A program made the position numbers and the translations under genes. A stretch of 64,000 bases of DNA from Tubulanus polymorphus (taxonomy: Eukaryota; Animalia; Nemertea), in NCBI RefSeq assembly GCF_964204645.1, contig NC_134031.1:13813807-13877806 (forward strand), given 5' to 3'. The notes under the pieces were generated by a model. It searched no databases, was not told where the DNA came from, and was given only the letters and a program-made list of their open reading frames with translations. The first letter of the stretch is position 1, and each line of letters begins with the position of its first letter. Shown one piece after another: positions 21,898 to 57,714 of this stretch.

Positions 21898-21987
21898 AGT
21901 AATTAGAAAAGTGGGGTTTCAGGCCAGAGGGCGTGAGGGCGAGACACCACTCATCACCACAAGTAATTTTTTTTCCTAATAAATGGG
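21898..21987 (+). repeat. Left TIR of element A (includes the pPolB start codon)
   Basis: Exact reverse complement of 39263-39352. Confidence 0.95.
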
Positions 21988-24900: not shown

Positions 24901-27049
24901 TGAACATATTAAATTTAAATCTAGAAACTTACCTTATTGCCCTGAACATTTAACTGTAGATGATAGTTATTTAAGTGAATACCAGAAGAAAGTAAAACCG
25001 AAAGATCATGTTTTTACGGAAAAATTAATACTTACTCAAAATAATAAATACAATTATATTGTTCATTATAGAATGTTAAAATTTTATCTAAAACAAGGAA
25101 TGAAATTAAAGAAAGTACATAGATATATTGAATTTAATCAATCGAAGTAGTTAGAAAAATATATAGATTTCAATACTCAACAGAGAACCATATCAAAAAC
25201 AGATTTTGAAAAAGATTTCTTTAAATTAATGAACAATAGTTTTTATGGTAAAACATGTGAAAATATTAGAAATAGAAATGATATTGAATTAGTAAATAAT
25301 TCTGAAAGATTAAGACATTTACAATCAAGTCCTAGACATTTAGGAAATAAAAGATTTGAAGATTATTTAACAGCAGTTAAATTAAAAAGAACATCAATGA
25401 AATTTAATAAACCTATATTTATTGGTTCGACTGTTTTAGAAGTATCAAAATTATTAATGTATGATTTTTATTATAATGTTTTACAACCACTTTTTGGAGA
25501 AAAACATATAGAAATATTATATTTTGATTCTGTAACAGCTGACACCCCAATATTATTAAAATGTAATGATAAAATATTGGTAAGAAGAATTTCAGAAATA
25601 ATTCCAAAACAAAATGAATGTTATATTTCATATGGTGAAAAAGAATTAATACAAATAAATGGATTAATGGATGTTTGGACAAGAAATGGATGGAAAAAAT
25701 TAAAGAATATTATTAGACATAAAACAAATAAGAAAATCTATAGAGTTAGAACTAAATTAGGATTTGTAGATGTTACAGAAGATCATAGTTTAATTAAACA
25801 AAATGGTGATGAAATAAAACCAACTGATATAAAAATTAGAGATGAATTATTACATAAAAGATTTTACCCAAGAATGAATCATATGTCATTTGATGAAATA
25901 ATTGATAATATTTATAATATAGAACCCGAAACATTGGAAGAAAAAGAATATTTTATCAAAGGATTTTTCATGGGCGATGGTTCAGCAGGTGTGTATAATT
26001 ATGTTAGTGGAACTAAATATTGTTGGTATTTATGCAATCAAGACTTAAAATTATTAGAAAGAATTAAGAAATTCTGTGAAGAAGTTTATTCACATAAAAC
26101 ATTTAGAATCATGGACCATATGAAATCATCCGCGGTTTATAGAATACTTGTAAATAATCCTAAAGATTTTGCTACAGAATATAATAATGAATTCTATATT
26201 CATGCAATAGTGAAAAGTAATACTTCAACAAAAGAAAAGATAGTTCCAGATTACGTATTAAATGCAAAAAATAATTTAAGAAAATGGTTCTTCATTGGAT
26301 TCTATGCTGCAGATGGTTCAAAAAGTTTCAAAAACCGCAAAACAATATCTTTAGCTCAAAAAGGAAAAGTTGCTATATCAGGATTGAATATATTATGCAG
26401 TTCATTAGGATTTAATATGAATATTGGATTGATTAAATCTAAACCAAATTGCTTTAATTTAAGCCATGTAGAAAATGAGTTAACAGAAGAAGTTAAAGAT
26501 TTATTTGAAATATATAACCCAACAGATTATGTTTATGATTTATCAACTGAAGATGGTACATTTAACTGTGGATTTCCATTAATAGCAGTCAATACGGATG
26601 CCTACATACTAAAAATCAAGACAAATGACATAACAAAAGACTTAAAAACATTAAAACATCATTTTGATTTTAGCAATTATCCTAAAGATCATGAACTATT
26701 TAGCAATGATAATAAAAAGATTCCTGGTAAATTTAAAGATGAATTAGGAGGTGATGAAATGATTGAATTTGTTGGGATAAGAAGTAAAATGTATTCATAT
26801 AAAACTAAAGAACATGAAGCTAAAAAGTTAAAAGGAATAACAAAACTTGTGGTTGATAATCATATAGAATTTCAAGATTATATAAAGTGTTTATATAAAT
26901 CAATTGTAATGAAACACAAAATGAATTGTTTAAGATCAGAAAATCATGAAATGTATATAAATGAAATTGAAAAAACTAGTTTAAATCCATTTGATGATAA
27001 AAGGCATATTTTAGATGATGGTATAAAAACATTACCTTATGGCCATTAA
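21983..27049 (+). pseudogene. polB: Protein-primed family B DNA polymerase polyprotein (N-terminal C2H2-like fingers, vOTU-like protease, exonuclease with HNH/EndoVII-like insert, polymerase, intein); interrupted by TGG>TAG at 25148-25150
   Basis: Motifs YGDFES, FHNLSGYD, FLDS, YLKSDV, YIDANNLYG, KLMNNSFYGK, YFD/TD, KMY, NPFDDKR; NEDNKCFLW..HY protease-like motif; DHDH..YRGAAH..CN. ORFs 21983-25150 and 25229-27049 are in the same frame and copy B has Trp at the stop. Confidence 0.93.
25529..26593 (+). mobile_element. Intein (355 aa) with LAGLIDADG homing endonuclease in pPolB motif C, copy A
   Basis: ILYFD/SVTADTPILL ... TEDH (block B) ... FIKGFFMGDG and FFIGFYAADG (two LAGLIDADG helices) ... 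YVYDLST (block F) ... LIAVN/TDAY; removal restores YFDTD. Confidence 0.95.
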
Positions 27050-36925: not shown

Positions 36926-37531
36926 ATGGTAGGTGAAAAGAAAATAAAATCTAAAAATGGTGATGTTCCAATTGAAAAAACTTTAGATAATTTAGGAATA
37001 ACAGAAACAAAATTAACTCCAGATGATGGTGTTTTAAATAATGTTACAACAAATAATAATTATGAATATTATCTTTATTGTAAACATCAATTAGAAATAT
37101 TAATAGCATCTGGAAAATGTAAAAATTTTGTCAGTAAAAATTTAACTTATAATGAATTAGACACAATGAAATCAGATGAAATTATTAGATTATTTAAGAT
37201 TTATGAAGCCGCGAGAACAGCTAGAATTAATGACGCGATATCATAAAATGTAGTAAAAGGTTATAGTAAATTATGTAATTATATACTACCAATTGAAAAT
37301 GAAAATAGATTATATTCCGATTTAAAAAATGACTATTTAGTTATGACTGAATTAAATAAATGGATTGGATATTTATCATTTCAATTAGGTGGATTTATGA
37401 CATTATTATCAACTGGAGTTATAACATTTTCAAATATTGAAAGTAAAAATATTTCTATAATAAATGAGCGAGGTGAAAGAAGTGAAGGAATTAACTGTGA
37501 AGAAAAAACCGAGAACTCAGAAACAAATTGA
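36926..37531 (+). pseudogene. Hypothetical protein split by GAA>TAA at 37244-37246
   Basis: ORFs 36926-37246 and 37343-37531 are one reading frame that is continuous in copy B (42181-42723). Confidence 0.8.
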
Positions 37532-37832
37532 ATGGTCTCGACAATTAGGAATTAAATCACAAGAATATAAAAAAGCTGTAAAAGAAAAAATAAGTAATAA
37601 AAATGTTAATAAAAATGGTGAAAATATTGTTATTTCTACTCCTTCTAATAATAGAATATTTGATAAATGTCTATATTCTACAGTTGGATTTGTAATTGTA
37701 TTCATTTTGATTGGGTGTAATTGGTATAAGAAATCAAATAAAATTCATGATATTAATAATTCTGAAACAAATGCTATCAAAAATGAAAATACTTCTGAAA
37801 TTCCAAAATTGATAATAAAAAAAATGGATTAA
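37464..37832 (+). CDS. Basic protein with single TM segment (122 aa)
   Basis: ATAAATG start; KKKPRT basic stretch; VGFVIVFILIG hydrophobic helix. Confidence 0.72.
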   Translation: MSEVKEVKELTVKKKPRTQKQIEWSRQLGIKSQEYKKAVKEKISNKNVNKNGENIVISTPSNNRIFDKCLYSTVGFVIVFILIGCNWYKKSNKIHDINNSETNAIKNENTSEIPKLIIKKMD

Positions 37833-38317
37833 TATTTTAGAAAAAAAGCAAAAAAAATAATTTTTTTTAATTAATTGAATATTAATTGAATATCTCACTA
37901 CTTTTGTCTATCTATGCGGAGCAATTAAATTGTCCAGATAAGTCATTTCGGATTCTAGATATTCATTATTTTTATTATTTTATTTTGTTTTTACTTGAAT
38001 ATTGTATTACAGTCGTTTCTTATTATTAGTTTTTTCTTAAATTGAAAGATGGCAGCACTGGGTGTGATGCTAAAATGAATATTTGAATTTGAATTTGAAT
38101 TTGTTAATCAATTAACATAGTAATTGATCACTAATTTGATTAAAAATTATATCATAATGAAGTTAAAAATACATAATTCATTTATCAGTTTCATTCTTAC
38201 ATTCTTTTCATTCAGAATAATTTATAATTTCAAATTTCACATATTTTTTTAACACCAACAACATTTACTTAGGTGTTTTAGCTAAGTATATAAGGTAATT
38301 CATTCAACCACTAGAGT

Positions 38318-38600
38318 GCCGCCGGGCTTGGCTTGCAGGGGCATTTCGAAAATGCACCTTTGCTCCGTGGTTCTCCTTCAGTTTCGACTTTCGATCCTCC
38401 TTTCGGGGGTAAGGGGTTGATAGGAAATGCATCAGGCGCCTTTAATATAATGTGTTTCCTGTCAACCATTGAAGGAGAATTGGTGAGGTGTGGGTCACAG
38501 GGGTGTAAGTAGAAGTGCTTGGGGATAGGTATCTCGTGGCGCCTCTCAATAACGGGATGCTTATCCCCTAAAAACTCTGCGAGTCAAGACGGGTGGTTTT
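38318..38600 (+). ncRNA. Putative structured non-coding RNA (~280 nt), possibly a Pol III transcript
   Basis: GC-rich ORF-less island with nested helices whose mismatches are G-U wobbles on the + strand; TATATAA at 38287; first TTTT at 38597-38600. Confidence 0.7.
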
Positions 38601-38940
38601 GCTAAAACTTACCATAAAAACATTGAAATATTCCTTTTAATCACGATAGAATGATGACTATCCTCCTGTTGTCACGGTTGAGCTAATTTAAATAAACCTC
38701 GTTTTCAGCAACTAATGAAAACGTAGTAATTCAATACCAGCTAACTGGCTTGTGTGTGTTGTATGTACTGTGTGCTTATTATATAACAACAACGTTGTGC
38801 AACACCTGTTTGATTGATAAATATTCAAATGAAGCACTCTCTTACAATAATATGTAACAGATGTACTGTATGATTATAGTTGTTTATAAAACGACTAAGG
38901 TCATTTTGGATTCTAGATATTCATTATTTTTATTTCTTAT

Positions 38941-39267
38941 TTAATCAACAATTTCTAAATCATGATGACCGTCTTCATTTTTCCCATGATATATTATTTT
39001 AAATCCTACTAAATCTTTCAATTCCTCCATACTCAATGAAACCCATTTATCGGGTAAAAACACTTTAAATTCTCGTGATGTACTAACATTACAGTAGCTT
39101 AAATTAGCTGATACTTTCTCTCCATATTTAGTTTTTATCTTTTCTAATTTCAATATTTTATGTTCAATTTCTTTTGTAACATCAACTAACTTTTTTATTT
39201 CAAATTGTTTTTTTGCTGGTTTTATTCTGTTATTTATTGTTGCTAAGAATGCTTTTCTATCTCCCAT
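38941..39267 (-). CDS. 108-aa terminal protein (possibly OB-fold ssDNA-binding; unverified)
   Basis: Start codon inside right TIR; nearly identical in copy B; TKYG...VFLP beta-rich pattern. Confidence 0.7.
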   Translation of the reverse strand: MGDRKAFLATINNRIKPAKKQFEIKKLVDVTKEIEHKILKLEKIKTKYGEKVSANLSYCNVSTSREFKVFLPDKWVSLSMEELKDLVGFKIIYHGKNEDGHHDLEIVD

Positions 39268-39352
39268 TTATTAGGAAAAAAAATTACTTGTGGTGATGAG
39301 TGGTGTCTCGCCCTCACGCCCTCTGGCCTGAAACCCCACTTTTCTAATTACT
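39263..39352 (-). repeat. Right TIR of element A
   Basis: Reverse complement of 21898-21987; followed by TSD TATAAT. Confidence 0.95.
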
Positions 39353-39846
39353 TATAATCGAACTTTCGATCTAATGCTACGACATGGACCCGTGCATAAA
39401 TATCGTTTTAGAGTCAAATGATCGACCCTGATTCCTCCCCCCCCCCCCCAATTTATATCTTCTTGAGTAGGTGCATGCACCCGTAGGTCATAGTTTTTTC
39501 ATACTCTTCCATTGGTATGACTGGTGACATAGTAATGCAATTAGAAGAATCAATTAGTCAATTCCCACATTTTGAAAGACTTTTATAATGCGAGACTGTG
39601 CGCGGCAGCACAGGCAGTTAGCGCGATTGGCTTGGGATACATGCGTTACTGGTTTCTTCGAAAGTTCCACTTGGGCCCAATGGAATGAAGGTTTGAACCA
39701 GATTTGATGCGATATCACTTTCGATGGCACTATTTGGGTTTTGCGCTGTGATAGATGGCTGCGCTATTTGCGTACGGTTTCACTTTCACAAAGGCAATAT
39801 TTCGAATATTTCCCCAGGTTTTATACGTACGGTTCGGACGGAGTTT

Positions 39847-40037
39847 CAATGCGCACTTATTCTTTTCCAGTATTTAGTATCAATTTTTTCTAGTTTTTCA
39901 ATATGATATTCATCATCTTTTGATAATTTATCTAATTTTTTAAATGTAAATTCTAATTTTTAGGCGCGAATCTTGCATTTAATTTATTCAATTTCTTTGA
40001 TTTCATTGCTTTTCCCTTTGGTTTGTTTCCTCTGCAT
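39847..40037 (-). pseudogene. Decayed homolog of the 108-aa terminal gene, from an older related element
   Basis: ATAAATG start at 40037; frameshifted peptides LNKLNARFAPK and LEFTFKKLDKLSKDDEYHIEKLEKIDTKYWKRISA align to LATINNRIKPAKKQFEIKKLVDVTKEIEHKILKLEKIKTKYGEKVSA. Confidence 0.75.
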
Positions 40038-40240
40038 TTATAAAGAAAGAAATTAACCTACCCTACCTCATTTCTACGTATTTTACCTACCGTACCTCAT
40101 GCATATCTACCTAAATATATTTTAATCGAATTAGATTTATCAAATTCAATACAACATTTACAATTCTTGATATTTTATATTGAATTATATAACGAATTAA
40201 AGGCAATAACTGCTTACATTGATCACAATATTTATAATCA

Positions 40241-41208
40241 TTTTTAGCCCACTTGCGACTTAAGCCTATTGCGTTCACTTTTCGTCCGTCTGTCCGTAGA
40301 CGGAATCCAGTTATTTTGGGAAGTTTTGAAGACGCTTCAAGGTAATGTCTTGATATTTGGGTTAAACATGTATCTACACTAGACACATCTTCAACCCAAA
40401 AACTGGCCCTGTCAGAATCAAGATGGCCGACTGGCAGCCATTGTTGTTCGTCAACATCAGCACTTTTTACACAGTTTTGAACTTTTTGAGGAAAATTTTG
40501 TAGACGCATTGATCAATTAGCTTGATCTGTCGTATATATTTGAATCTTCCAAAAGCCCATTCCAGCGTAAGAAAAATTGGGTCGATCGGACTCAAGATGG
40601 CCGTCCTATGACATTTTTAGTGGCCAAAATTGTCGATTTTGGCCCGAATTCTGAGTCCTGAAGCTTCCTACTGGTTTGCCATTTCTCATTGCAATTTGTC
40701 ATTGGTACTCTTTGGAAAGGGATGTTTTATACCTGAGAGACAGGTACGTATTTTTGATCAGCCAATCATGACGCCATTGGCGGCCATCTTGGTGTTGTCA
40801 GTACTCTTTCGTAGGTGGAAAAACGTTTTTTGACATTATATTGATACCTAAGCATATTTTGTTACCACTGGTTTTAAGGACATTATTATATTTTATATGG
40901 TCACCAGGGCGCGTTGAATAGTAGAATAATTTAGTATTTCCTTATTAGATTGGTACCTAGGCATATTTTGTTACCATGATCGATTACAAATTTGTTGCTT
41001 ATGACATGTTCTATGATTGTGGTTAGTTTCAAGGTCATTGGGTTTCGCATATGGTCACCACGGGGCGTTGAATAGTAGAATTACTTAGTATTTCCATATT
41101 AAAATGGTAACGAGGCATATTTTTTATCACAATCAATTACAAAATCTGCTGACACGTTCTATGATTGTGGTGAGTTTCAAGGTCATTAGTTTTTGTATAT
41201 GGTATATG
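40241..41208 (+). mobile_element. HINE copy 3, 5' part (interrupted by Polinton B)
   Basis: Same 5' end and tandem block as other copies; sequence resumes at 57616. Confidence 0.85.
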
Positions 41209-41329
41209 AGTAATTAGAAAAGTGGGGTTTCAGATCAGAGGGCGAGAGGGCGAGACACCACTCATCACCACAAGTAATTTTTTTTTTCCTACTCATCACC
41301 ACAAGTAATTTTTTTTCCTAATAAATGGG
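41209..41329 (+). repeat. TIR of element B with internal ~30-bp tandem duplication
   Basis: Matches 57526-57615; ACTCATCACCACAAGTAAT(T)nCCT occurs twice (41260-41290, 41291-41319). Confidence 0.92.
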
Positions 41330-41651
41330 AGATAGAAAAGCATTCTTAGCAACAATAAATAACAGAATAAAACCAGCAAAAAAACAATTTGAAATAAAAA
41401 AGTTAGTTGATGTTACAAAAGAAATTGAACATAAAATATTGAAATTAGAAAAGATAAAAACTAAATATGGAGAGAAAGTATCAGCTAATTTAAGCTACTG
41501 TAATGTTAGTACATCACGAGAATTTAAAGTGTTTTTACCTGATAAATGGGTTTCATTGAGTACGGAGGAATTGAAAGATTTAGTAGGATTTAAAATAATA
41601 TATCATGGGAAAAATGAAGACGGTCATCATGATTTAGAAATTGTTGATTAA
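41325..41651 (+). CDS. 108-aa terminal protein, copy B
   Basis: One substitution relative to copy A. Confidence 0.7.
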   Translation: MGDRKAFLATINNRIKPAKKQFEIKKLVDVTKEIEHKILKLEKIKTKYGEKVSANLSYCNVSTSREFKVFLPDKWVSLSTEELKDLVGFKIIYHGKNEDGHHDLEIVD

Positions 41652-41776
41652 ATTTAAAAAAAAATAAATTAATAAAAATAATGAATATCTAGAATCCGAA
41701 ATGACTTATCTGGACAATTTAATTGCTCCACATAGATAGACAAAAGTAGTGAGATATTCAATTAATATTCAATTAA

Positions 41777-42184
41777 TTAAAAAAAATTATTTTTTTTTTG
41801 CTTTTTTTCTAAAATATTAATCCATTTTTTTATTATCAATTTTGGAATTTCAGAAGTACTTTCATTTTTGATAGCAGTTGGTTCAGAATTACTAATATCA
41901 TGAATTTTATTTGATTTCTTATACCAATTACACCCAATCAAAATGAATACAATTACAAATCCAACTGTAAAATATAAATATTTATCAAATATTCTACTAT
42001 CAGAAGGAGTAGAAATAACAATATTTTCACCATTTTTATTAACATTTTTATTACTTATTTTTTCTTTTACAGCTTTTTTATATTCTTGTGATTTAATTCC
42101 TAATTGTCGAGACCATTCAATTTGTTTCTGAGTTCTCGGTTTTTTCTTCACAGTTAATTCCTTCACTTCTTTCACTTCGCTCAT
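41777..42184 (-). CDS. Basic single-TM protein, copy B (C-terminus altered by an A-run indel)
   Basis: Homolog of 37464-37832. Confidence 0.68.
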   Translation of the reverse strand: MSEVKEVKELTVKKKPRTQKQIEWSRQLGIKSQEYKKAVKEKISNKNVNKNGENIVISTPSDSRIFDKYLYFTVGFVIVFILIGCNWYKKSNKIHDISNSEPTAIKNESTSEIPKLIIKKWINILEKKQKKNNFF

Positions 42185-42723
42185 TTATTATAGAAATATT
42201 TTTTACTTTCAATATTTGAAAATGTTATAACCCCAGTTGATAATAATGTCATAAATCCACCTAATTGAAATGATAAATATCCAATCCATTTATTTAATTC
42301 AGTCATAACTAAATAATCATTTTTTAAATCGGAATATAATCTATTTTCATCTACAATTGGTAGTATATAATTACATAATTTACTATAACCTTTTACTACA
42401 TTTTCTGATATCGCGTCATTAATTTTAGCTGTTCTCGCGGCTTCATAAATCTTAAATAATCTAATAATTTCAACTGATTTCATTGTATCTAATTCATTAT
42501 AAGTTAAATTTTTATCAACAAATTTTTTACATTTTCCAGATGCTATTAATATTTCTAATTGATGTTTGCAATAAAGATAATATTCATAATTATTATTTGT
42601 TGTAACATTATTTAAAGCACCATCATCTGGAGTTAATTTTGTTTCTGTTATTCCTAAATTATCTAAAGTTTTTTCAATTGGAACATCACCATTTTTAGAT
42701 TTTATTTTCTTTTCACCTCCCAT
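42181..42723 (-). CDS. Hypothetical protein (180 aa), copy B
   Basis: Continuous homolog of 36926-37531. Confidence 0.75.
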   Translation of the reverse strand: MGGEKKIKSKNGDVPIEKTLDNLGITETKLTPDDGALNNVTTNNNYEYYLYCKHQLEILIASGKCKKFVDKNLTYNELDTMKSVEIIRLFKIYEAARTAKINDAISENVVKGYSKLCNYILPIVDENRLYSDLKNDYLVMTELNKWIGYLSFQLGGFMTLLSTGVITFSNIESKKYFYNK

Positions 42724-42754
42724 TTATAAAACAAATAAATTAGTTGTGTTGTTG

Positions 42755-43027
42755 CAACTAGAATTCAACTAGAATTCAACTAGAATGTAACTAGAATTCA
42801 ACTAGATTAACAAGCTAGTTGAAATATTGTTGTTTTTGTTTATTTCTTGTTAAATCTAGTTGATTTTTGTTTCAACTACTAACAACTAGAATTCAACTAG
42901 AATGTAACTAGAATTAGACTAGATTGACAAGCTAGTTAAAATATTGTTAAATCTAGTTGATTTTTGTTACAACTACCAATAACTAGAATTCAACTAGAAT
43001 TCAATTAGATTAACAAGCTAGTTGAAT
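42755..43027. repeat. AACTAG/CTAGTT repeat array, copy B
   Basis: Counterpart of 36642-36895 with a different unit number. Confidence 0.85.
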
Positions 43028-43636
43028 TTAAATAAATTCATATTTAAATGGGTGTTGTAATCTAAATAGTAATTTTGATCTTTTAATATTTTTCAACTTA
43101 TCCATATATTCATTATGTAAATCATGTGGAATAATATCATTTTCCTCAAGTGCATTTTTCATTGATTTTCTATCTTTATTGTAGAATAAAACTAGAAATC
43201 TTATATTCTCTCTAAAATCTTTCACAATTGAATTATATTTTTGATTTAAAACCCAAGTTGTTATCCCAAAATGTCTCCCAGAGAAAGCTAAATAGCATAA
43301 CTCACTTTCTCTAATTTTTGAATCATGTAAATTTGCACAATCATCTATGATAAATAATGTATTTGATCCTTTATAAATATCAATTGCTATTTTTATACAA
43401 TTATCTAAATTTTCTTTTACTGTTTTAGGATCTAATATAATAAATTTATTATTCCTAGTAATATTTCTATCATAAGTTTGATTAAATTCATATGTTGGAC
43501 AAAATAATACTATATTATCAAAATAGTTTTTGTAAACAGTTTCTAATAAATTTAATATGAAATAAGTTTTTCCACAATTTGTTACGCCAGAAATTAACAT
43601 ATTATGAGGCTCAAATATGAATAATTCCTTATTCAT
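43028..43636 (-). CDS. A32/FtsK-like packaging ATPase, copy B
   Basis: Walker A/B and GRH motifs intact. Confidence 0.93.
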   Translation of the reverse strand: MNKELFIFEPHNMLISGVTNCGKTYFILNLLETVYKNYFDNIVLFCPTYEFNQTYDRNITRNNKFIILDPKTVKENLDNCIKIAIDIYKGSNTLFIIDDCANLHDSKIRESELCYLAFSGRHFGITTWVLNQKYNSIVKDFRENIRFLVLFYNKDRKSMKNALEENDIIPHDLHNEYMDKLKNIKRSKLLFRLQHPFKYEFI

Positions 43637-44764
43637 TTATATATTTTTAATTTTACTTGATAATATCCATTCATTGAATTTATCTGGCCATCCAACCCAT
43701 TTTACTAAAGAATATTTTTTTCTTTTAATAGTTTTTGTTTTTAGTACTTTTTCAATTTTATATTCTTGTTCTATATTTTCAGTAGTTAAACTTAATTCTT
43801 CTTCATAAAAATATCCATCAACTTCTTCACCATCTAAATCTTCTAATTTATAGACATATGGTTTAGTTGTTATTACCTTTTTTATTTTATATATTTCTCT
43901 AGTAAAATTTCGATCGTATCCTTTATCAAATATCTTTTTATACTTAGAAATTCTAACATTTTGACCAACTTTAAATTTAGGTTCACCAAAATCATCTACA
44001 AGAAATGCTCCATATAAATTATTCCAAACAATTTCAGCATTTTCAGGTTTTCTAGCATCAATAGGTTTCATTCCAATAGAAGAATGATAAGAATTATTAT
44101 ATCCTTCTATCAATTTTGGTAAAACATCAATCCATTTAAAAGTATTATTTGCTGTAAAATATTTCCACATTCTTGTTCTTAATGTTCTATTAAATCGTTC
44201 AACAACTGCTGCTTTTTTATCCGATTTTGTTGAAAAATATTTAATATTATGAAAATCTAAAAGTCCATGAACAAGTGAATTATCAAATTCTTTTCCATCA
44301 TCAAATTGTATTTTTTCTGGTTTTAGTTTATCATCCGAAAGAAATTTTCTTAAAACATTTGATGTTTGTACAGCATCTTTTCTATAAAGTGGGAAACTCC
44401 ATACATAACGACTAAAAATATCAATTATATTCAATAACCACCAATAATCATCATTATCTTTCTTAACATTTTTCATATCAATTAAATCTCCTTGCCACTG
44501 TTGATCTACATAACTTACCATAGTTTTACGAGTTTTATATTTTCTAACAATTTTTTTATGTGTTGTATATGTTGGTTGTTCTAACATAAATTCATTTATA
44601 TCTTTATATTTAACTAAATTTTGTGGGATTATCTTATCTAATTTATCTTGTTTTACTTTACGCCATATATTTTTAGTAGAAGAATAAGCAACCGAACTCT
44701 CAGGGTTGTAATATAAATTTCTTAAATATTGTTCTTTAATATTAGGAGTTTTTTTACCACTCAT
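43637..44764 (-). CDS. rve integrase with chromodomain, copy B
   Basis: DDE motifs and chromodomain intact. Confidence 0.95.
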   Translation of the reverse strand: MSGKKTPNIKEQYLRNLYYNPESSVAYSSTKNIWRKVKQDKLDKIIPQNLVKYKDINEFMLEQPTYTTHKKIVRKYKTRKTMVSYVDQQWQGDLIDMKNVKKDNDDYWWLLNIIDIFSRYVWSFPLYRKDAVQTSNVLRKFLSDDKLKPEKIQFDDGKEFDNSLVHGLLDFHNIKYFSTKSDKKAAVVERFNRTLRTRMWKYFTANNTFKWIDVLPKLIEGYNNSYHSSIGMKPIDARKPENAEIVWNNLYGAFLVDDFGEPKFKVGQNVRISKYKKIFDKGYDRNFTREIYKIKKVITTKPYVYKLEDLDGEEVDGYFYEEELSLTTENIEQEYKIEKVLKTKTIKRKKYSLVKWVGWPDKFNEWILSSKIKNI

Positions 44765-44794
44765 TTATATATCCTTAATTTTAACTTTATATTT

Positions 44795-46042
44795 CTAATA
44801 TTGAATACTATCTAATTGTGAATTTACAATATTTAATTGTGCGTCAGATATAATATAAATATGCATTTTAAAATTTTTGATTCCTTTATTCTTTTTCATG
44901 AATAATTGTATTCCATCTTTTGTATTTTGTAGTTTTTTTCCAGAACCATGTAATGAATTATCTTCAGTTGTTCTAAAATCTAACCATAATGCATATTTAT
45001 TACCGGTATAATAATCAATTTGATTAATATTACAATTTTCAAATGATTTTATTTTTTCATTCATAAAATGTTTTTTAATTTCTACCCATTGATCAATCAT
45101 TCTCATTCCTTGACAAAATATTTTATTCGCTATTCCTTCGATAGTTATTTCTACTTTTGTTATTTCAGGATTATAATAATTATCAACATTTATTGCGCCA
45201 TTAGTATACGTTCCAATGGTAAAAAATATTAATATACCTTTAATAGATCTTCTAGGGAAGTTAATATTCACATTAATTATTTCATCATTTGCATTAATAG
45301 TTACAGTTTTAAATTTATCAATATAATCATATAATAATGAAAACCCTTGATTATATTTAGTTTGAATTATACTTGAAATATTTTCATCAGTTACTATATC
45401 ATATTCTAAACATATATTCGATAATTTATAACTCATATCTTTATTAACGCTAGATATTACGATTTCATTTACAGGAGCAAATGTTATCTCAAATATAATA
45501 TCTTCTTGAATTGCGTATTTATATAAAGGTGCATTATTATTTATCAATTCAAAGTCTAATGGAATTTTATATTTGCTTCCATATATACTTTTTATCAATT
45601 TATCTACATCATTTGTTAATATTGCGCTATTAGCTTCTGATCTTAATTTATTTTGGTTTTCTGATTGAATACCCTGAAATATCATATTATTTCTATTTTC
45701 TTTAGTTAACCATAAATCTTTATAATGCATAAATAAATTATAATCATCTAATGAGAAAACTGTTTCCGGACCAATCTTTATTGTTAACTTTTTAATCAAA
45801 TATCTTCCAACATTATCAACGACATAATTATTATTATTACCGATTACTTTTATATCGGCTGATAAATAAATACTATTTGGAACATAAAAAGTATTTTGTG
45901 TTAATCTAGGGATTTTAACGTATAAAGTTTCATCGGGATTAATATTTGAAGGGTTATGAGTAATTATATGATGTGATCTTTCTGCTTTAATAGCATTAGA
46001 TATTCTATGATTCTTCGAAGGACTTATATAACTCCCACTCAT
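44795..46042 (-). CDS. Probable major capsid protein, full length (415 aa), copy B
   Basis: Homolog of 33627-34853 with intact C-terminus. Confidence 0.74.
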   Translation of the reverse strand: MSGSYISPSKNHRISNAIKAERSHHIITHNPSNINPDETLYVKIPRLTQNTFYVPNSIYLSADIKVIGNNNNYVVDNVGRYLIKKLTIKIGPETVFSLDDYNLFMHYKDLWLTKENRNNMIFQGIQSENQNKLRSEANSAILTNDVDKLIKSIYGSKYKIPLDFELINNNAPLYKYAIQEDIIFEITFAPVNEIVISSVNKDMSYKLSNICLEYDIVTDENISSIIQTKYNQGFSLLYDYIDKFKTVTINANDEIINVNINFPRRSIKGILIFFTIGTYTNGAINVDNYYNPEITKVEITIEGIANKIFCQGMRMIDQWVEIKKHFMNEKIKSFENCNINQIDYYTGNKYALWLDFRTTEDNSLHGSGKKLQNTKDGIQLFMKKNKGIKNFKMHIYIISDAQLNIVNSQLDSIQY

Positions 46043-46113
46043 TTATTTAACAAAAAAATTAATTATTTATTTTTTGATATCATGGTTTACTTGATATTTT
46101 TTGATATCATGGT

Positions 46114-47521
46114 TTACTTGATATTTTTTGATATCATATTCACTAACCCAAAAATAATAGCACTAACAACTGTGATTAAAAATAAAATAATATGTTCAGC
46201 AGCAAAGTTAAGAATATTCCCAGCAGATTTCAATATAAAACCAACAATTGAAGCAATAACTCCTGGCAATGCTAAATATTTTGCTAATTTCTTTAAACCA
46301 TCCTTAACTTTATCTTGTATAGAATTATTGCCTGGAGGTTTATCTGGTTTATTTGGAGTAGGAGTAGATTTCAAAGCATTTGATATTGCTAAACCAATTG
46401 TTGTGAATAACATAGTTACAGCTGTTAGAATTGAAAGAATTGTTATTCCTTCTAATTTAAATAATAACTTTATTCTATCTTTCAATGATATTTCAGAATT
46501 TGGTTTTATCAACAAATCTTTAAAAATAACTTTTAATCTATTTATATTATAATCATACGATTTTAACGATAATTTAATTTCTTCTTTTTGTAATTCTATG
46601 TTATATTCTAAATCATCTTTTTCTTTTTCTAAACGTAACTCTTTTTGCCTATATTCTATTTCATCAATTACTTGATGATCTAAATCAGACTTTAATTGTT
46701 CTATTTCTTTATTTTTATCAGTTAATTCTTTTTCTAAAGTTCTAATTTTAAAATCTCTTATACTTTTATTATGTGCAATTTTATCAGATGCAAGTCTTAT
46801 ACTAATCTCTAATTGCTTTATCAGAAAATATATCTAAATCTTCTAATTCTTGATCTGTTGCATCAAGTAATCCCTTCGGTAAAAGTTTTTCAGTTTGAAC
46901 TTCTCTTGAATTAGGTCTACTAGTTTTGGAAGTTTTATCTTCTTTAGGAATTGTTTCTGGTTCTAAATTTTCATTAATTATCTTCAAAAAATCATTATTT
47001 CTTCGATTAAATTCTCTTCTATTTTGATTTATCTCTTCTTCTGTAACATCAGTTATAACATCATTATTGATTTTTTTAATTCTAGATTGTTCTAATTTAA
47101 TAAAAGTTGATTTTGTTATTATTTTATCAAGACTTTTATTAGAAGAAATCTTAAAATAATAGTCATCTTTCAAATGCCAATAATAATCACCATTTAAATA
47201 TTTCAAATCTTTTACTAAATAATTCACACCTTTATTTGTTATATTGAATCCAGATTTTTCTAATATTGGTTTGAATTTATCTGTTAATTCGTCATATTCT
47301 AGTTCTTTTTTCATTAAATCTGGATTTTCATTTTCAATGTCCAATCTTGAACGTGCTTTATTAACATATTCATTGGTATCAGGTCTTGCTAAATTAGAAT
47401 TATATGCTGTTTCATTTTCGTTACTGAAACTTGTTTCATCAAAATCAGGTGGTTGTTCATCAGTTATACCAGGTTCATCAAAAGGATCCATTCCAATATC
47501 TTCTCCACCTTCTACTTCCAT
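46114..47521 (-). pseudogene. Coiled-coil/membrane protein, copy B, frameshifted near 46800
   Basis: Homology to 32008-33606 continues in another frame (ASDKIAHNKSIRDFKIR); also lacks WELSKKSAA and has 27-bp tandem duplications at its 3' end. Confidence 0.8.
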
Positions 47522-47537
47522 TTATATAATAAAAAAA

Positions 47538-48839
47538 TTAAAATTTAAAATATAATATTCCTCCGATTACAATTCCTATACAAGTTATAGCTAATTTAGT
47601 ATTTTCATGGGATTTATTATCATCATTTAGTTTAATTATATCATGTTGAATTTTATCAGTTTTTATATCTTCTGATGTATTGTAATCTTTTATTTTAGAA
47701 TCATTATTTAATTTAATATTCTTAGTTTTAGTTTCTGTTGATTGAATATGTTTTTTATTTTTTTCACCTTCCATTAATTTTGGAGCAGTGATAATCTTTT
47801 TATTTATATCATTTAACCCAAATGAATTATTTATTGTTGCAGTTTTAATTAGATTATTATAACCAATTATATTTCCCATCTTCAATACTAAATCCTTAGA
47901 AATAATTAATAGATTAGGGCCTATACAATAATTAAGTCTTACATGAGATTTATCTAAATAATTTTGATATCTTATAATGTTTTCTGGAATCGATCTATTT
48001 TTATCATTATGAATTGAATCTTCAAATAAAACTTTAAACTGTTTCTGCGCATCGAATGAAGTGTTATCATTTCCAATTATTGGGGATCTTGTTTCAACTT
48101 GAGCGCCTAAAATACATATCAAATAAATTCTAATAGATTGATTTATTCTTTGTATACCTGATTTTGTAAAACCTTCACCATTTTCTAAAATGAAATTAAC
48201 CCAACTATTATTATTATCAATTTTATAATTATGATAAGCTCCAATTCTATGCATATAATCAATTCTTTTTATTTCATACTCTTCACCAACACCTTGCAAT
48301 TTACCATGCGCTCTAAAATCGGAATTAATATTTATATTAAATTCATTACATATTTTATAAAACTTGGATATATTAATATTATTATCCAATTCTTTAAAAT
48401 ATTTAGACCCGGGTAAAGGACATTCTAATTCATTTAATATTATTCTGATTTGAAAATATGTGTGAAATCTAAATATTGTGTGAATTAATTTTAAATCAGA
48501 ATACTTCAAATTTTTATCTAAGTTATTTAAATGATCATTCCAACTAATTCCACATCCTGTTGTTGCACAATAAACAGCAAAATTTAATTGATTCTGCCAA
48601 TATTTCATATTAGATTTTACTTTATATATATGATATTCATCTCGAGTAAAAGTAACTTCATATGTATTAAATATATTTTCCATTTTAGAAATAAAAAACT
48701 GTGATTCATTAACATAAATTTCTAAATTAGTTAATGAATTTAAAACTATATTTTTATATGTAATATTTTTCTTAAAATCTATTGCCGGAATATTATATTT
48801 AATTGATTTATTATATTGGAAAGCTTTTGGAAACCCCAT
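47538..48839 (-). CDS. 433-aa C-terminally anchored protein, copy B
   Basis: Near-identical to 30690-31991. Confidence 0.8.
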   Translation of the reverse strand: MGFPKAFQYNKSIKYNIPAIDFKKNITYKNIVLNSLTNLEIYVNESQFFISKMENIFNTYEVTFTRDEYHIYKVKSNMKYWQNQLNFAVYCATTGCGISWNDHLNNLDKNLKYSDLKLIHTIFRFHTYFQIRIILNELECPLPGSKYFKELDNNINISKFYKICNEFNININSDFRAHGKLQGVGEEYEIKRIDYMHRIGAYHNYKIDNNNSWVNFILENGEGFTKSGIQRINQSIRIYLICILGAQVETRSPIIGNDNTSFDAQKQFKVLFEDSIHNDKNRSIPENIIRYQNYLDKSHVRLNYCIGPNLLIISKDLVLKMGNIIGYNNLIKTATINNSFGLNDINKKIITAPKLMEGEKNKKHIQSTETKTKNIKLNNDSKIKDYNTSEDIKTDKIQHDIIKLNDDNKSHENTKLAITCIGIVIGGILYFKF

Positions 48840-48855
48840 TTATATAACTAAAAAA

Positions 48856-49290
48856 TTAATAATTTATTAATTCTTTTAATAATTTATCTTGTTCTTCAAC
48901 TGTTATATGACCATTTAAACTTATTATATAATCTAGTGTGTTCTTTAATTTATTAATTTCTTTTATATTAGTTTTAATTTTTTCTTTATTACTTTTTATA
49001 TTTAATTTTGAACTTATACCAGTTAAAACACTTGAACTTAATCCTAATACACCAATTGATATAGCTAAAGGTGTTAATGGACTGAATATTGCTAAAAATG
49101 TTATTACAGAACTAATTGTAACCGAACCACTTATAATCAAATAATATATAATTTTACTTTTTAAATATTTTTTCTTTTTAACTTTTAAGTCACTTTCAAA
49201 TTCTAATATTTGTTTTTCTAAATATTTTTTTAATTTAGTTTTATTTATATCATGAGGAATAATATCAATACTATCAACTTTATCTTCCAT
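48856..49290 (-). CDS. Two-TM protein, copy B
   Basis: Homolog of 30239-30673. Confidence 0.78.
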   Translation of the reverse strand: MEDKVDSIDIIPHDINKTKLKKYLEKQILEFESDLKVKKKKYLKSKIIYYLIISGSVTISSVITFLAIFSPLTPLAISIGVLGLSSSVLTGISSKLNIKSNKEKIKTNIKEINKLKNTLDYIISLNGHITVEEQDKLLKELINY

Positions 49291-49322
49291 TTATTTAGAA
49301 TAAAAATTACTTATTAGTAAAT

Positions 49323-49733
49323 TTATAAGCAACAAATATAACAATAACTTGTTCCACCTAAAATCCATATTATTTCATATTTCTGTTGTTCTTTACTTGG
49401 GGTATAATAATCTGATAATTTAGGTTTGTATAGATGTAATTTTTCTTTATTTGTTACTGCGTTATATAAACTCATTGCATCATCAACTGATTGAAAATCT
49501 CTATGTGAAATCTTCTGATCATATAATTCTTTATTGATGTAATCCATATAGTTTTGTCTCTTTTCTCTATATTCTTCTGCAGCTTTATTGTATTTCTCTA
49601 ACGCTAAGTTATGTCTTCTTTGTTCTCCTAATGAACTATTTTTATCAATATGTTTAAATAAATAACCACCACCAGTAAATGCTAAAGCGTTAACAATTGC
49701 CGATCCTATAATAGTTATAATTGCAGAAGCCAT
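49323..49733 (-). CDS. Membrane protein, copy B (frameshift alters the C-terminal TM)
   Basis: Homolog of 29797-30219; diverges after LGGT. Confidence 0.7.
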   Translation of the reverse strand: MASAIITIIGSAIVNALAFTGGGYLFKHIDKNSSLGEQRRHNLALEKYNKAAEEYREKRQNYMDYINKELYDQKISHRDFQSVDDAMSLYNAVTNKEKLHLYKPKLSDYYTPSKEQQKYEIIWILGGTSYCYICCL

Positions 49734-49757
49734 TTATTTAACAAAAAAATTATGCAT

Positions 49758-49979
49758 TTATATGGGAGGAATATATTTTTGTTTTTCCAAATAATCAATA
49801 GTTAAATTAGATAAAGTAACTGCTAATGTTAACTTTAAAATATCATTTATATCAAATCTATCAACATTAACACTTCCCATTTTGAATACTTTTTTTAATA
49901 CCATTGAATAACCAACAGTTCCAACTGATAGTAAGGCACCATTATATAATCCAGTTATTATCCACTTATTATCATTCAT
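49758..49979 (-). CDS. Small hydrophobic protein (73 aa), copy B
   Basis: Homolog of 29551-29772. Confidence 0.75.
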   Translation of the reverse strand: MNDNKWIITGLYNGALLSVGTVGYSMVLKKVFKMGSVNVDRFDINDILKLTLAVTLSNLTIDYLEKQKYIPPI

Positions 49980-50321
49980 TTATTTATCAAAAAAATTACT
50001 ATCATCAAAATATTTAGTTAACTTATTTATGATTAATTCAACATTTATTTCATTACTAGTTTTATGATTATCATATATTTTGGATAATATGTTTTTAATA
50101 TCTTCAATAATTCCATCTTCATTTAATTCATAATATTCTAAAGGTGATTTAATTAAATCAATTACTTTTTCTATATTATACTTTTCTTCATCAATCATTG
50201 ATGCATTGTTAAATGATTTACTTTTTATATCAGTAATTACATCATTTAGTTTAATTCTCATTTCTTTACCATGTTTAAAATCAAACCCAAAACATATACT
50301 CGGTCCAACAGTTATATTCAT
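49980..50321 (-). CDS. Hypothetical protein (113 aa), copy B
   Basis: Homolog of 29191-29547 with divergent middle. Confidence 0.75.
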   Translation of the reverse strand: MNITVGPSICFGFDFKHGKEMRIKLNDVITDIKSKSFNNASMIDEEKYNIEKVIDLIKSPLEYYELNEDGIIEDIKNILSKIYDNHKTSNEINVELIINKLTKYFDDSNFFDK

Positions 50322-50337
50322 TTATATAGGTGAAAAA

Positions 50338-51099
50338 TTACTCTTTACATCTTATAACTAATTCATAAATTACAGGAAAGTTATTCAAATCAATTAAGTA
50401 TCCATTATGATTTCTAATTTCTAATCTAAAATTATTAAAACTAGGAATGCATGGTTTGAAATCACAATCTGTTAAATTATAATTTATTTGCGTTCCAAAT
50501 TCTTTAACATTCTTCCATGGTAAAATGTTTAGTAAACCAGAATTACAAGTTATATCTTTAGTTGCTTCGAATGTTTTTGTAGGATCGATTAAATTGCAAT
50601 AAATATAAAAATGTGTGTAAGGTATTAAGTTTGGTGTAGTAGCGTCAATATTTGTAAAAGATCTATCTGGAAGAATTCCTAACAGTTTAGCTATAGGTTT
50701 TTTTACCATAAGTTTATGTTTTTCACTATTAGACAACCTTATCTTTATTCTATCAGAACTCTCACTTTTTAAAAATCTAATACTAAACCCAGAACTACTA
50801 CCTAATTTGTGCCAGGCTTTTCTATTAATTTCTTGTGCTAATGTATCTAAATTATATAACCCTGGTTTTAAATATATATAGACCCATTCATTTTTATTTC
50901 TAATATTAATTAAAATGACTCTATGTTCAATAGACTTATCCGATACATTGTAAAAAGAATTACATAAACTTATATTAACTAATTTTAAATCTACACAATT
51001 CTTAAATTCTCTATCTAATTGTACTAGTAAATTATGAGATTTATAATTTGTAAGTTTTCTAGAATCAACAAATATTCTGTATTCTTTTAATTCTACCAT
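50338..51099 (-). CDS. Minor capsid protein (penton), copy B
   Basis: Homolog of 28416-29174 with divergent central region. Confidence 0.8.
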   Translation of the reverse strand: MVELKEYRIFVDSRKLTNYKSHNLLVQLDREFKNCVDLKLVNISLCNSFYNVSDKSIEHRVILINIRNKNEWVYIYLKPGLYNLDTLAQEINRKAWHKLGSSSGFSIRFLKSESSDRIKIRLSNSEKHKLMVKKPIAKLLGILPDRSFTNIDATTPNLIPYTHFYIYCNLIDPTKTFEATKDITCNSGLLNILPWKNVKEFGTQINYNLTDCDFKPCIPSFNNFRLEIRNHNGYLIDLNNFPVIYELVIRCKE

Positions 51100-51167
51100 T
51101 ATTTATAACACAAAAAAATTACCGCTCATCACTAAAAATTAATTTTAATAAAATTTTTCCTTAATAA

Positions 51168-52469
51168 ATGGATGAGAAGATAGCATGCGAAATTTGTGGT
51201 GAACTTCTAAGAAAAAGTAATATGGCTCGACATATGAAAAAACATGATGAAAATTATAAACCCCCTAAAATAAACTGTCCAAAATGTAATAAATTATTCT
51301 CAAGAAATTATGTTAAAAAACATTCAGAGAAGTGTAGAATTAATGGCGCAACGGCTAATGTTGATAGTAATTCTGCTGAAGTTGAACCTGAAGTTATTTG
51401 GAAAAGACCTTTCTTATTCTATGATAAGGATAATATAAAAGATCATTTCTGTGAGCCTTGTCAAGTAAAATATAGCCCTGAAAATATAGAAGATTGGGAG
51501 AATCATCAATTTCGTAAAGCACATATAGATAAAATTTCTAATAAATTTGAAACTGAATTCAATGAAAGAAAAAATAATTTATTAGAAAAAATAAAATATG
51601 AGAAAACGTTACCAGATAATAAAGAAACAGTTGAAAAGTTAGAAAAACAATATAATGAATTAACAAGAAAAACATATTATTGTAAATATTGTAAATTGAT
51701 TATTACAACAAGTAATTCAAATCTACATAATAGAACAATAAAACATAAAGAAAACGTAAGAAAATACCAAGAGCTTAATGAAGATCTATTACCAATAAAT
51801 TATAAACGAAAATGCCCACAATGTAGTTATGCGACCTTAAGACAAGAAGGTACTGTGTTATTTTGTGTTGAATGTGGATGGCAAAAGAATTTATGGGGTG
51901 AAGAAAAAACTAGAGATTTTCTCATAGAACCAAAATTAAATTATCTAGATGAAATTTTTAAAATATTTTCTATAGAAGATCATACACCAGAATATATGCA
52001 ATGGCTTGAAAAAATGAAAATAATAGAAAATAAAAATGGTGAAATAACTAAAAAAGATATTATAAAAACAATTATTCCACCAACATTTAACACAAAACAA
52101 AAGAAAATGTATTTATATTTATTATTTAACGATTATTATGAAAAACCTAAATTAACAGAAGAAGATATGGAAAATATAAAAAAAATATTTAAACAAATAT
52201 TAATGTATCATTTGGAAAATAGAATAACAGATTCAATAAATTATGAATTCTTTTTAAATAAGATTGTAAATTATTTAAACCTAGATATTATAATTCCATT
52301 TGATGAATTAACAAACAAAAAGAAACAAAGAGAGCGAGATGAAATGTGGAACAAGATAGAACTTTATTTAAATGAGAAAAATGGAATGGAAGAAGAACCT
52401 GAACAATTAAATGAAAATGAAGAAGCCAATAGTGATTTCGAGTATGATGATATTGATTTTATGTTTTAA
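51168..52469 (+). CDS. Zinc-finger/VLTF3-like protein, copy B
   Basis: Near-identical to 27046-28347. Confidence 0.7.
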   Translation: MDEKIACEICGELLRKSNMARHMKKHDENYKPPKINCPKCNKLFSRNYVKKHSEKCRINGATANVDSNSAEVEPEVIWKRPFLFYDKDNIKDHFCEPCQVKYSPENIEDWENHQFRKAHIDKISNKFETEFNERKNNLLEKIKYEKTLPDNKETVEKLEKQYNELTRKTYYCKYCKLIITTSNSNLHNRTIKHKENVRKYQELNEDLLPINYKRKCPQCSYATLRQEGTVLFCVECGWQKNLWGEEKTRDFLIEPKLNYLDEIFKIFSIEDHTPEYMQWLEKMKIIENKNGEITKKDIIKTIIPPTFNTKQKKMYLYLLFNDYYEKPKLTEEDMENIKKIFKQILMYHLENRITDSINYEFFLNKIVNYLNLDIIIPFDELTNKKKQRERDEMWNKIELYLNEKNGMEEEPEQLNENEEANSDFEYDDIDFMF

Positions 52470-57530: not shown

Positions 57531-57615
57531 TTATTAGGGAAAAAAATTACTTGTGGTGATGAGTGGTGTCTCGCCCTCTCGCCCTCTGATCTGAAACCCC
57601 ACTTTTCTAATTACT
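57526..57615 (-). repeat. pPolB-side TIR of element B
   Basis: Reverse complement of the 41209 terminus; followed by TSD TATATG. Confidence 0.95.
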
Positions 57616-57714
57616 TATATGGTATACCAGGGGGCGTTGAATATTGAAATAGTTAGATTGTTGAGAATTTGAAACCACTTCCCAAGTGGGCATGGTTTCC
57701 CTGGACCCCTAGTT
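57616..57714 (+). mobile_element. HINE copy 3, 3' end
   Basis: ...CTTCCCAAGTGGGCATGGTTTCCCTGGACCCCTAGTT matches 16660-16750. Confidence 0.85.

What the first reader, a model, noticed from the sequence alone, without database searches (positions are those of the whole stretch)
38287..38600. Unannotated ~280-nt structured RNA gene inside Polinton A
Seen: a GC-rich, ORF-less island with nested complementary pairs: 38327-38340 with 38575-38588; 38353-38362 with 38498-38507; 38369-38382 with 38468-38481; an 18-bp hairpin (38415-38432 / 38450-38467); a 17-bp hairpin (38521-38537 / 38552-38568); and a small UUCG-capped stem near 38397-38409. Every non-Watson-Crick position I checked in these five long helices (three in each) is a G-U wobble on the + strand, which is expected for selected RNA structure but not for a decaying DNA inverted repeat. 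TATATAA lies ~30 nt upstream and the first TTTT run comes exactly where the closing helix ends. Inference: a Pol III-type viral ncRNA, conceptually like adenovirus VA RNA (a dsRNA/RNAi decoy or small-RNA precursor). I know of no ncRNA described from Polintons.
Basis: partly seen in the sequence, partly recalled or inferred. Interest (0 to 1): 0.9.

Follow-up and report, generated by a model that had tools for sequence, protein, structure and literature searches.

The report
Twin kissing-loop RNA in worm Polinton
A virus-like transposon (Polinton) in a ribbon-worm genome carries an optional stretch that folds on one strand into a long 283-base rod whose two hairpin loops show the same self-complementary six bases; it is likely a small viral RNA gene, predicted to stick to itself through those loops and likely to decoy the host's double-stranded-RNA defences, but its expression is untested.

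Summary
Observation confirmed and extended. The five helices hold 73 pairs: 15 G-U, no mismatch. The + strand folds at z -9.1, the - strand at -3.0. A strand-neutral scan gives G-T:A-C 8:0, against about 1:1 in the window's DNA repeats. TATATAA sits at -31 from the G that opens the closing helix; TTTT (38597-38600) ends it. No Rfam match.

New: both long hairpin loops present the palindrome GGCGCC, and the hairpins look like diverged duplicates. Of 17 pairs, 9 differ and none is broken. The RNA lies in a ~958-bp cassette bounded by a 44-nt repeat. The neighbouring Polinton copy lacks it, but many related copies in public runs have it. The element encodes a double-jelly-roll capsid; the host TPI exon matches a nemertean.

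Not shown: transcription, function, covariation across homologues (none found elsewhere).

Best reading: a Pol III viral RNA working like adenovirus VA RNA, with added kissing loops. It is not a VA family member. Two earlier scan notes report other, differently built hairpin-RNA genes in Polintons of other animals.

The parts
38318..38600 (+). Predicted RNA, 283 nt: rod of about 74 bp with one side hairpin and a U tail
   Evidence: first G pairs with the last base before the unpaired U tail; 79 of 100 predicted pairs at p>0.9
38287..38293 (+). TATATAA, at -31 to -25 from the predicted start
   Evidence: sequence; 21 copies in 17,455 nt of the element; promoter role inferred
38597..38600 (+). 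First T4 run, candidate Pol III terminator
38318..38347 (+). 5' strand of closing helices (6+14+7 bp; partners 38592-38597, 38575-38588, 38512-38518)
   Evidence: mean pair probability 0.97-0.99
38353..38382 (+). 5' strand of the core arm (10+3+15 bp; partners 38498-38507, 38485-38487, 38468-38482)
38384..38409 (+). Two small hairpins at a four-way junction, one UUCG-capped
   Evidence: pair probability 0.71 and 0.79; four UUCG in the RNA, P 0.04
38415..38467 (+). Hairpin P4: 18 bp, 17-nt loop
   Evidence: z -5.9 (+), -4.1 (-)
38434..38441 (+). 8-nt palindrome in the P4 loop (GGCGCC core 38435-38440), candidate kissing site
   Evidence: unpaired probability 0.92-1.0 over the hexamer
38521..38568 (+). 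Hairpin P5: 17 bp, 14-nt loop; likely duplicate of P4
   Evidence: z -5.5 (+), -1.3 (-)
38538..38543 (+). GGCGCC palindrome in the P5 loop, candidate kissing site
37942..38942 (.). Optional cassette (~958 bp plus one repeat copy), absent from Polinton B
37942..37985 (.). Left copy of the 44-nt direct repeat
   Evidence: 93% to the right copy; the single copy in B is 96% to it over 54 nt
38900..38942 (.). Right copy of the 44-nt direct repeat, at the 3' end of the 108-aa minus-strand ORF
21898..39352 (+). Polinton A: terminal inverted repeats and 6-bp target duplication TATAAT
   Evidence: pPolB, rve integrase, A32 ATPase
33627..34853 (+). Double-jelly-roll major capsid protein, 408 aa
   Evidence: model pLDDT 94; Foldseek to iridovirus, PBCV-1 and mavirus capsids, E 2e-16 to 1e-10
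41204..57620 (-). Polinton B: sister copy, ~95-97% alike in the longest arms, without the cassette; target duplication TATATG

Best explanation
This stretch folds, on the + strand only, into a long G-U-studded rod with two related hairpins whose loops both display GGCGCC; it is likely a stand-alone viral RNA gene read by RNA polymerase III, whose product is predicted to pair loop-to-loop and likely serves as an abundant decoy for the host's double-stranded-RNA sensing and silencing proteins. Steps. (1) Selected RNA structure on +: shown statistically, about 0.9. (2) Own transcript from G38318 to the U run at 38597-38600, driven by an upstream TATA (U6-type) promoter: inferred from layout, about 0.7. 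(3) The two open loops kiss, either folding the rod back on itself or linking molecules into dimers or chains: predicted, about 0.55. (4) Helices of 14-18 bp broken by wobbles bind but do not trigger dsRNA sensors, Dicer or export factors, as VA RNA does, with self-association raising avidity: inferred by analogy, about 0.4-0.5. It is an accessory module: gained or lost by recombination between two copies of a 44-nt element motif, and able to act in trans for copies that lack it.
For: Strand-asymmetric fold. G-T:A-C 8:0 against ~1:1 in controls. TATA at -31 from the G that opens the closing helix, T4 at its end. Hairpin likeness P 0.0005-0.003 against shuffled hairpins. In the loop-anchored register 8 pairs are the same, 3 changed on one side, 6 on both, 0 broken, of 17. 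Two such loops share a palindromic hexamer in 0.04% of random draws; GGCGCC occurs only at these two places in Polinton A. Loops are open at a cost of 0.37 kcal/mol; duplex energy of the two isolated loop sequences is -15.1. Related copies: the main variant contig (X1 record 6) has 4 other letters, 2 of them inside the predicted RNA, one in a loop and one turning G-U into A-U, plus a 6-nt indel opposite the 10-nt bulge whose extra letters are complementary to the bulge. VA-I is wobble-enriched and interferes with PKR, Exportin-5, Dicer, ADAR and OAS (PMC6599070, passages). Adenovirids evolved from polintons (PMC11071308, passages).
Against: No transcript evidence. No PSE could be tested. Internal A and B boxes match only loosely. 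Covariation among true homologues could not be counted; an ~82%-alike variant exists but its changes were not listed. Two compatible substitutions are too few to mean much. Conservation against the downstream flank is only P 0.065 (8/374 vs 17/348). With the loop kept, stems alone give only P 0.06-0.12 for paralogy, and MAFFT chose another register. Polinton B and six metagenome relatives (75-81% ATPase identity, partial contigs) show no such island. PKR, the best-known VA target, is a vertebrate protein (recalled), so the target in a worm is a guess. Duplex energies of free loop sequences overstate a constrained kiss.
Confidence: 0.45

Rival explanations
1. A Pol III RNA whose main job is architectural: the twin kissing loops polymerise it into rings, chains or a condensate that organises viral replication or packaging (working like phi29 prohead RNA, oskar kissing-loop granules, or BocaSR at replication centres).
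For: Two identical sticky loops per molecule. Palindromic kissing loops scaffold oskar granules (PMC11567897, passages). BocaSR localises to viral replication centres (PMC11194592, passages). The element has a capsid and packaging ATPase.
Against: Absent from Polinton B and not seen in six relatives, so not a core part. No pairing of its loops or arms with the element's own sequence beyond 5 shuffles each.
Confidence: 0.2
2. A Pol III small-RNA precursor: the two hairpins are cut into miRNA-like products, as in foamy-virus or BLV Pol III transcripts.
For: Two hairpins of ~50 nt in one Pol III-like unit; foamy-virus pri-miRNAs have hairpins first thought too short for Drosha (PMC4378190, passages).
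Against: Stems are 17-18 bp. Between the two hairpins the loop is the best-kept part and the arms differ at 15 of 34 positions, the reverse of what miRNA families usually show (recalled). No arm target in the element beyond shuffles.
Confidence: 0.15
3. A captured host Pol III gene or a SINE-like passenger that merely rides in the Polinton.
For: Optional cassette with a GC content unlike the element, bounded by direct repeats. An ~82%-alike variant appears to diverge just past the terminator, so it may sit in another context.
Against: No Rfam or tRNA match. No second copy in the 64-kb window. In one search the RNA is not deeper than the rest of the cassette, and one contig (X3 record 14) bridges the cassette to the Polinton ORF side. 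Part of the repeat motif also occurs in related Polintons, so it is unlikely to be a target-site duplication.
Confidence: 0.12
4. A cis element: a single-stranded-DNA fold used in strand-displacement replication or recombination, or a structure in a read-through mRNA.
For: With DNA parameters + also folds better than - (-51.8 vs -35.8); it lies between convergent genes.
Against: A TATA at -31 and a T4 exactly bracket the closing helix; UUCG-capped stem; dispensable in copy B.
Confidence: 0.08

Closest known systems
Adenovirus VA RNA I/II
   Same: Viral, highly paired 5'-3' closing stem, wobble-rich helices, oligo-U end; virus descended from polintons (PMC6599070, PMC4378190, PMC11071308; passages read).
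   Different: 283 vs ~160 nt; upstream TATA and no clean internal A/B boxes; twin palindromic loops instead of a 3-bp central pseudoknot; optional rather than universal; no sequence or Rfam match.
EBV EBER1/2 and bocavirus BocaSR
   Same: Small structured viral Pol III RNAs in non-coding regions (PMC4378190, PMC11194592; passages read).
   Different: No sequence likeness found in Rfam scans; BocaSR is 140 nt with a type II internal promoter; no pairing with the element's own ends was found here.
Palindromic kissing-loop RNAs: HIV-1 DIS, oskar SL2b; multimeric RNAs phi29 prohead RNA, ROOL, GOLLD
   Same: GC-rich six-base palindrome shown in a hairpin loop; possible protein-free self-assembly (PMC11567897, PMC12990946; passages read).
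   Different: DIS and oskar loops are single sites in long genomic or messenger RNAs; here two copies sit in one small stand-alone RNA. Kissing is predicted, not shown.
Foamy-virus and BLV Pol III pri-/pre-miRNAs
   Same: Pol III unit with short hairpins (PMC4378190, passages read).
   Different: Hairpins are embedded in a long rod; loops rather than arms are conserved between the two hairpins.

Membership tests
Adenovirus VA RNA | Match to the Rfam VA model | tested here: not met
   (E up to 5) and 57: no hit in the RNA
Adenovirus VA RNA | Internal A and B box promoter | tested here: not met
   strict patterns (recalled consensus) 0 hits; one loose hit each at 38329 and 38389
Adenovirus VA RNA | Wobble-rich long stems with paired ends | tested here: met
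Adenovirus VA RNA | Inhibits dsRNA sensors or Dicer | not testable with these tools
   needs bench assay
U6-type (type 3) Pol III gene | TATA near -30 | tested here: met
   TATATAA at -31 from G38318; the start site itself is predicted
U6-type (type 3) Pol III gene | Proximal sequence element shared with host snRNA genes | not testable with these tools
   no host genome held; literature search listed nothing
U6-type (type 3) Pol III gene | First T4 or longer run at the 3' end | tested here: met
   absence of an internal T4 has chance 0.17
U6-type (type 3) Pol III gene | Transcribed by Pol III | not testable with these tools
   no raw RNA reads were offered
Known host Pol III RNAs (7SK, SRP, RNase P/MRP, tRNA, vault, Y) | Rfam or ARAGORN match | tested here: not met
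Kissing-loop RNA | Self-complementary sequence unpaired in a hairpin loop | tested here: met
Kissing-loop RNA | Loop-loop pairing shown physically or by covariation | not testable with these tools
   no pseudoknot or RNA 3D tool; no homologue alignment
Polinton/Maverick (host element) | TIRs, 6-bp TSD, pPolB, rve integrase, packaging ATPase, DJR capsid | tested here: met

The most novel reading that the evidence does not exclude
An animal polintovirus encodes a natural two-armed 'sticky' RNA: a Pol III transcript built by duplicating one hairpin so that two identical palindromic loops either lock it into an RNA-origami-like two-helix tile (P5 17 bp + kiss 7 bp + P4 18 bp = 42 bp, against 35-41 bp of core arm) or chain it into protein-free polymers or condensates that trap host dsRNA defences or scaffold viral factories. 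With the other Polinton RNA genes noted by this scan, small Pol III RNAs would be a recurring, independently invented accessory of the lineage that gave rise to adenoviruses.
Probability: 0.25. Interest if true: 0.9.

Novelty: new variant of a known kind. Interest (0 to 1): 0.72.

Why it matters
Viral Pol III RNAs are known from a few vertebrate viruses. Polintons are widespread endogenous viruses and the likely ancestors of adenoviruses, yet my searches found only Rfam-family RNAs reported for polinton-like viruses. A dedicated structured RNA would show that these elements carry RNA-based accessory functions in invertebrates, would give a handle on lophotrochozoan dsRNA immunity, and would add a eukaryotic-virus example to the short list of self-assembling natural RNAs. 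The with/without-cassette polymorphism between near-identical copies is a natural comparison.

Tried and rejected
Expression: the look-up of sequencing runs listed no RNA holder (4 holders of unknown kind, 1 study, plus 1 guessed-RNA run with none of the words); nothing from that run was laid. This blank is no evidence either way. The full list of changes in related copies, needed for covariation, was not obtained: one search showed 40 of 224 substitution rows.

Homologue searches, all negative:
- Viral contigs patterns: 6 hits (16-19-nt matches only), 23 hits and 4 hits. In none did both motifs sit as open loops on long stems.
- Genome contigs pattern: 3 hits, chance.
- phages blastn: none.
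- Related Polintons by protein: 0 loci in viral contigs, 0 in genome contigs, 6 in metagenome contigs, all without a GC-rich structured island in the parts assembled.
- No host genome; loci not searchable by handle.

Rejected:
- Decaying DNA inverted repeat.
- tRNA-derived unit; known Rfam family (only SNORD107 at E 2.3 outside the RNA).
- Hammerhead core: by eye, none seen.
- Target-site duplication as origin of the 44-nt repeat: partial motif matches of 19-29 nt in L001, L004, L005 make an element motif more likely.
- A second structured RNA in the cassette: z -2.0, -2.3, -0.1.
- Antisense target in the element (only 5 shuffles per query).
- Nested L4-L5 pairing in place of the hairpins costs 35 kcal/mol.

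The sigma-70 scan is irrelevant to a eukaryotic element. Read depth is not a copy number and is used only qualitatively.

Full report
Setting. The window holds two Polintons tail to tail. A runs 21898-39352 and B 41204-57620 on the other strand. Each has terminal inverted repeats and a 6-bp target duplication, and the longest arms are 95-97% alike. A encodes pPolB, an rve integrase and an A32 ATPase. Its 408-aa ORF at 33627 folds as a double-jelly-roll capsid protein. A host exon near 20.7 kb is 100% identical, over 81% of a 47-aa query, to a triosephosphate isomerase labelled Tubulanus polymorphus (1 candidate), so the host is most likely a ribbon worm. No whole genome is held.

Observation. 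The five helices are exactly as described: 73 pairs, 15 G-U, no mismatch. The + strand folds at -135.5 kcal/mol, z -9.11; the - strand at z -2.98. Choosing helices that tolerate G-U biases the count, so I rescored diagonals on Watson-Crick pairs alone. The RNA gave 8 G-T, 0 A-C and 4 other mismatches. Five controls in the window gave 23:27, 2:7, 50:40, 16:13 and 73:77. A true host DNA inverted repeat at 18620-18920 folds alike on both strands. The structure is therefore selected on one strand.

Gene layout. The closing helix starts at G38318 and ends at 38597, followed by unpaired U's. TATATAA starts 31 nt upstream (38287) and the first TTTT is 38597-38600. The -31 spacing is that of U6-type promoters (recalled). 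TATATAA occurs 21 times in 17,455 nt, so about 0.6% of 5-nt windows would hold a start (my arithmetic). Lack of an internal TTTT is weak evidence (17% of shuffles). Strict A- and B-box patterns found nothing; loose ones one each. A PSE could not be tested. Rfam and ARAGORN found no family.

Anatomy. The predicted molecule is a rod of 6+1+14+7+10+3+15+18 bp ending in a 17-nt loop. A 17-bp side hairpin branches near the base, and two small hairpins sit at a four-way junction. No single helix exceeds 18 bp, though 14+7 and 15+18 bp can stack end to end.

New finding: twin loops. Both long hairpin loops contain GGCGCC followed by U, with AAUA near the 3' side. These are the only two GGCGCC in Polinton A; B has none. 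Random loops of this composition share a palindromic hexamer in 0.04% of draws. Both stay open in the ensemble, at 0.37 kcal/mol cost. The strand-neutral diagonal scan found by itself a 7-bp match between the loops. Global alignment with the first scoring scheme places the hairpins in the loop-anchored register; across three schemes P is 0.0005-0.003 against shuffled hairpins. In that register 8 of 17 pairs are the same, 3 differ on one side, 6 on both sides, and none is broken. Against this: with the loop kept, the stems alone reach only P 0.06-0.12 under free alignment (0.004 in fixed register), and MAFFT chose another register. If the duplication is real, this is internal covariation, with the loop as the conserved business end.

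Geometry (inference). P5, a 7-bp kiss and P4 sum to 42 bp, close to the 35 bp of the core arm (up to 41 in related copies). A fold-back at the four-way junction could thus close an intramolecular kiss. The zero-base link between the 15-bp and 18-bp helices favours straight stacking instead, which would leave both loops free for other molecules. I cannot choose between these.

Cassette. B lacks about 958 bp around the RNA. In A this stretch is bounded by a 44-nt repeat, 93% alike; B has one copy. Parts of the motif (19-29 nt) recur in three related Polinton contigs, so gain or loss by recombination between element motifs is more likely than a target duplication. Direction is unknown.

Related copies. 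Four runs (1 study, 2 samples, kind not on record) hold 38-41% of the sampled words. Laying X1, X3, X4 and X5, the first three cover the cassette, and X3 record 14 bridges it to the ORF side. Summed depth over the cassette is well below the Polinton flanks in X4, closer to them in X1, and mostly well above the host flank; the tool warns this is no copy number. X1 record 6 (38293-38536) has 4 other letters. The table lists four sites in that range at full depth; two fall inside the predicted RNA, one in the P4 loop outside the palindrome and one changing G-U to A-U. It also has a 6-nt indel opposite the 10-nt bulge, with extra letters complementary to the bulge (read by eye). Two contigs of an ~82%-alike variant align up to 38626 and leave 57-58 letters unaligned, which I read as lying downstream. 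Their changes were among the 184 of 224 rows not shown. The RNA-bearing contig differs less than the downstream one (8/374 vs 17/348, P 0.065): suggestive only.

Homologues elsewhere. None in viral contigs, prokaryote genomes or phages. Six metagenome relatives show no island in their partial contigs.

Mechanism. Most likely a Pol III transcript acting as a dsRNA mimic. VA-I is wobble-enriched, interferes with PKR, Exportin-5, Dicer, ADAR and OAS, and its wobbles lower sensor activation (PMC6599070, passages). Adenovirids descend from polintons (PMC11071308, passages). The twin loops add a self-association step of the kind known from oskar and HIV-1 (PMC11567897, passages) and from multimeric RNAs (PMC12990946, passages). 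Shown: structure, strand bias, loop motifs, optional cassette. Inferred: transcription, kissing, decoy role. Rivals are a scaffold RNA, a miRNA precursor (PMC4378190, passages), a captured host gene and a cis element. No antisense target was found in the element.

Prior art. Ten searches of the open library. Polinton + VA RNA: 0 papers. Polinton + small RNA + hairpin + decoy: 0. Polinton + non-coding RNA + Pol III: 5 general TE papers, listing only. A looser search gave 26, 20 listed, of which PMC11414722 was read in passages and concerns gene rearrangement. Adintovirus + noncoding RNA gave PMC12220804, which reports only Rfam and ARAGORN families in polinton-like viruses and virophages; its supplements were not opened. 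Subscription journals and Repbase/Dfam annotations were not searchable. Two earlier AI notes describe a 131-nt hairpin and a tRNA-derived ~360-nt RNA in other animals' Polintons; I could not test them, and no look-alike of this sequence was noted before.

Verdict. A real, selected, previously unannotated RNA structure with a Pol III-like frame and an unusual twin-palindrome design. It works, most likely, like a viral Pol III decoy RNA but belongs to no known family. Interest 0.72, held back by missing expression and covariation data.

Noticed in passing
window 21983-27049 (+) and 52466-57530 (-): The pPolB of both copies carries an intein with a LAGLIDADG-like domain (Pfam hits, intein below its curated cut-off), unusual for an element in an animal genome. 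The gene is broken in both copies, at different places (near 25150-25229 in A, near 54880-55002 in B). A search for Polinton + intein listed 18 papers, none read for this point except passages of PMC12220804.
   Followed up: partly
window 38941-39267 (-), 41325-41651 (+): The 108-aa terminal ORF has unnamed arthropod-rich look-alikes (0.94) and a weak lead to Phi29_Phage_SSB (0.88, family on 44% of members): possibly a single-stranded-DNA-binding protein.
   Followed up: partly
window 36620-36900 and 42755-43010: Array of short palindromic repeats (97-117-nt units) just after the ATPase gene in both copies; relatives L003-L005 fold strongly at the same place.
   Followed up: no
window 32008-33606 vs 46007-47521: The 532-aa ORF is the most variable region between A and B (segments at 72-77%) and is split into two ORFs in B; its role is untested.
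   Followed up: no
window 38252-38277: AACACC ... GGTGTT half-sites 14 nt apart, about -66 to -41 from the predicted start, where a PSE would lie; depth rises over 38205-38291.
   Followed up: no
window 38078-38102: Short (TTTGAA)n run inside the cassette, resembling non-LTR retrotransposon tails (recalled).
   Followed up: no
window 38690-38940: Several weak hairpins in the downstream part of the cassette (z about -2 on both strands), more variable among copies.
   Followed up: partly
window ~18580-18965: Host MITE-like element with near-perfect long terminal inverted repeats (74 bp without mismatch); used as the DNA-repeat control.
   Followed up: partly
window 39353-41203: Only 1.85 kb of host repeats separate two independent Polinton insertions in opposite orientation, each with its own TA-rich 6-bp duplication.
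   Followed up: no
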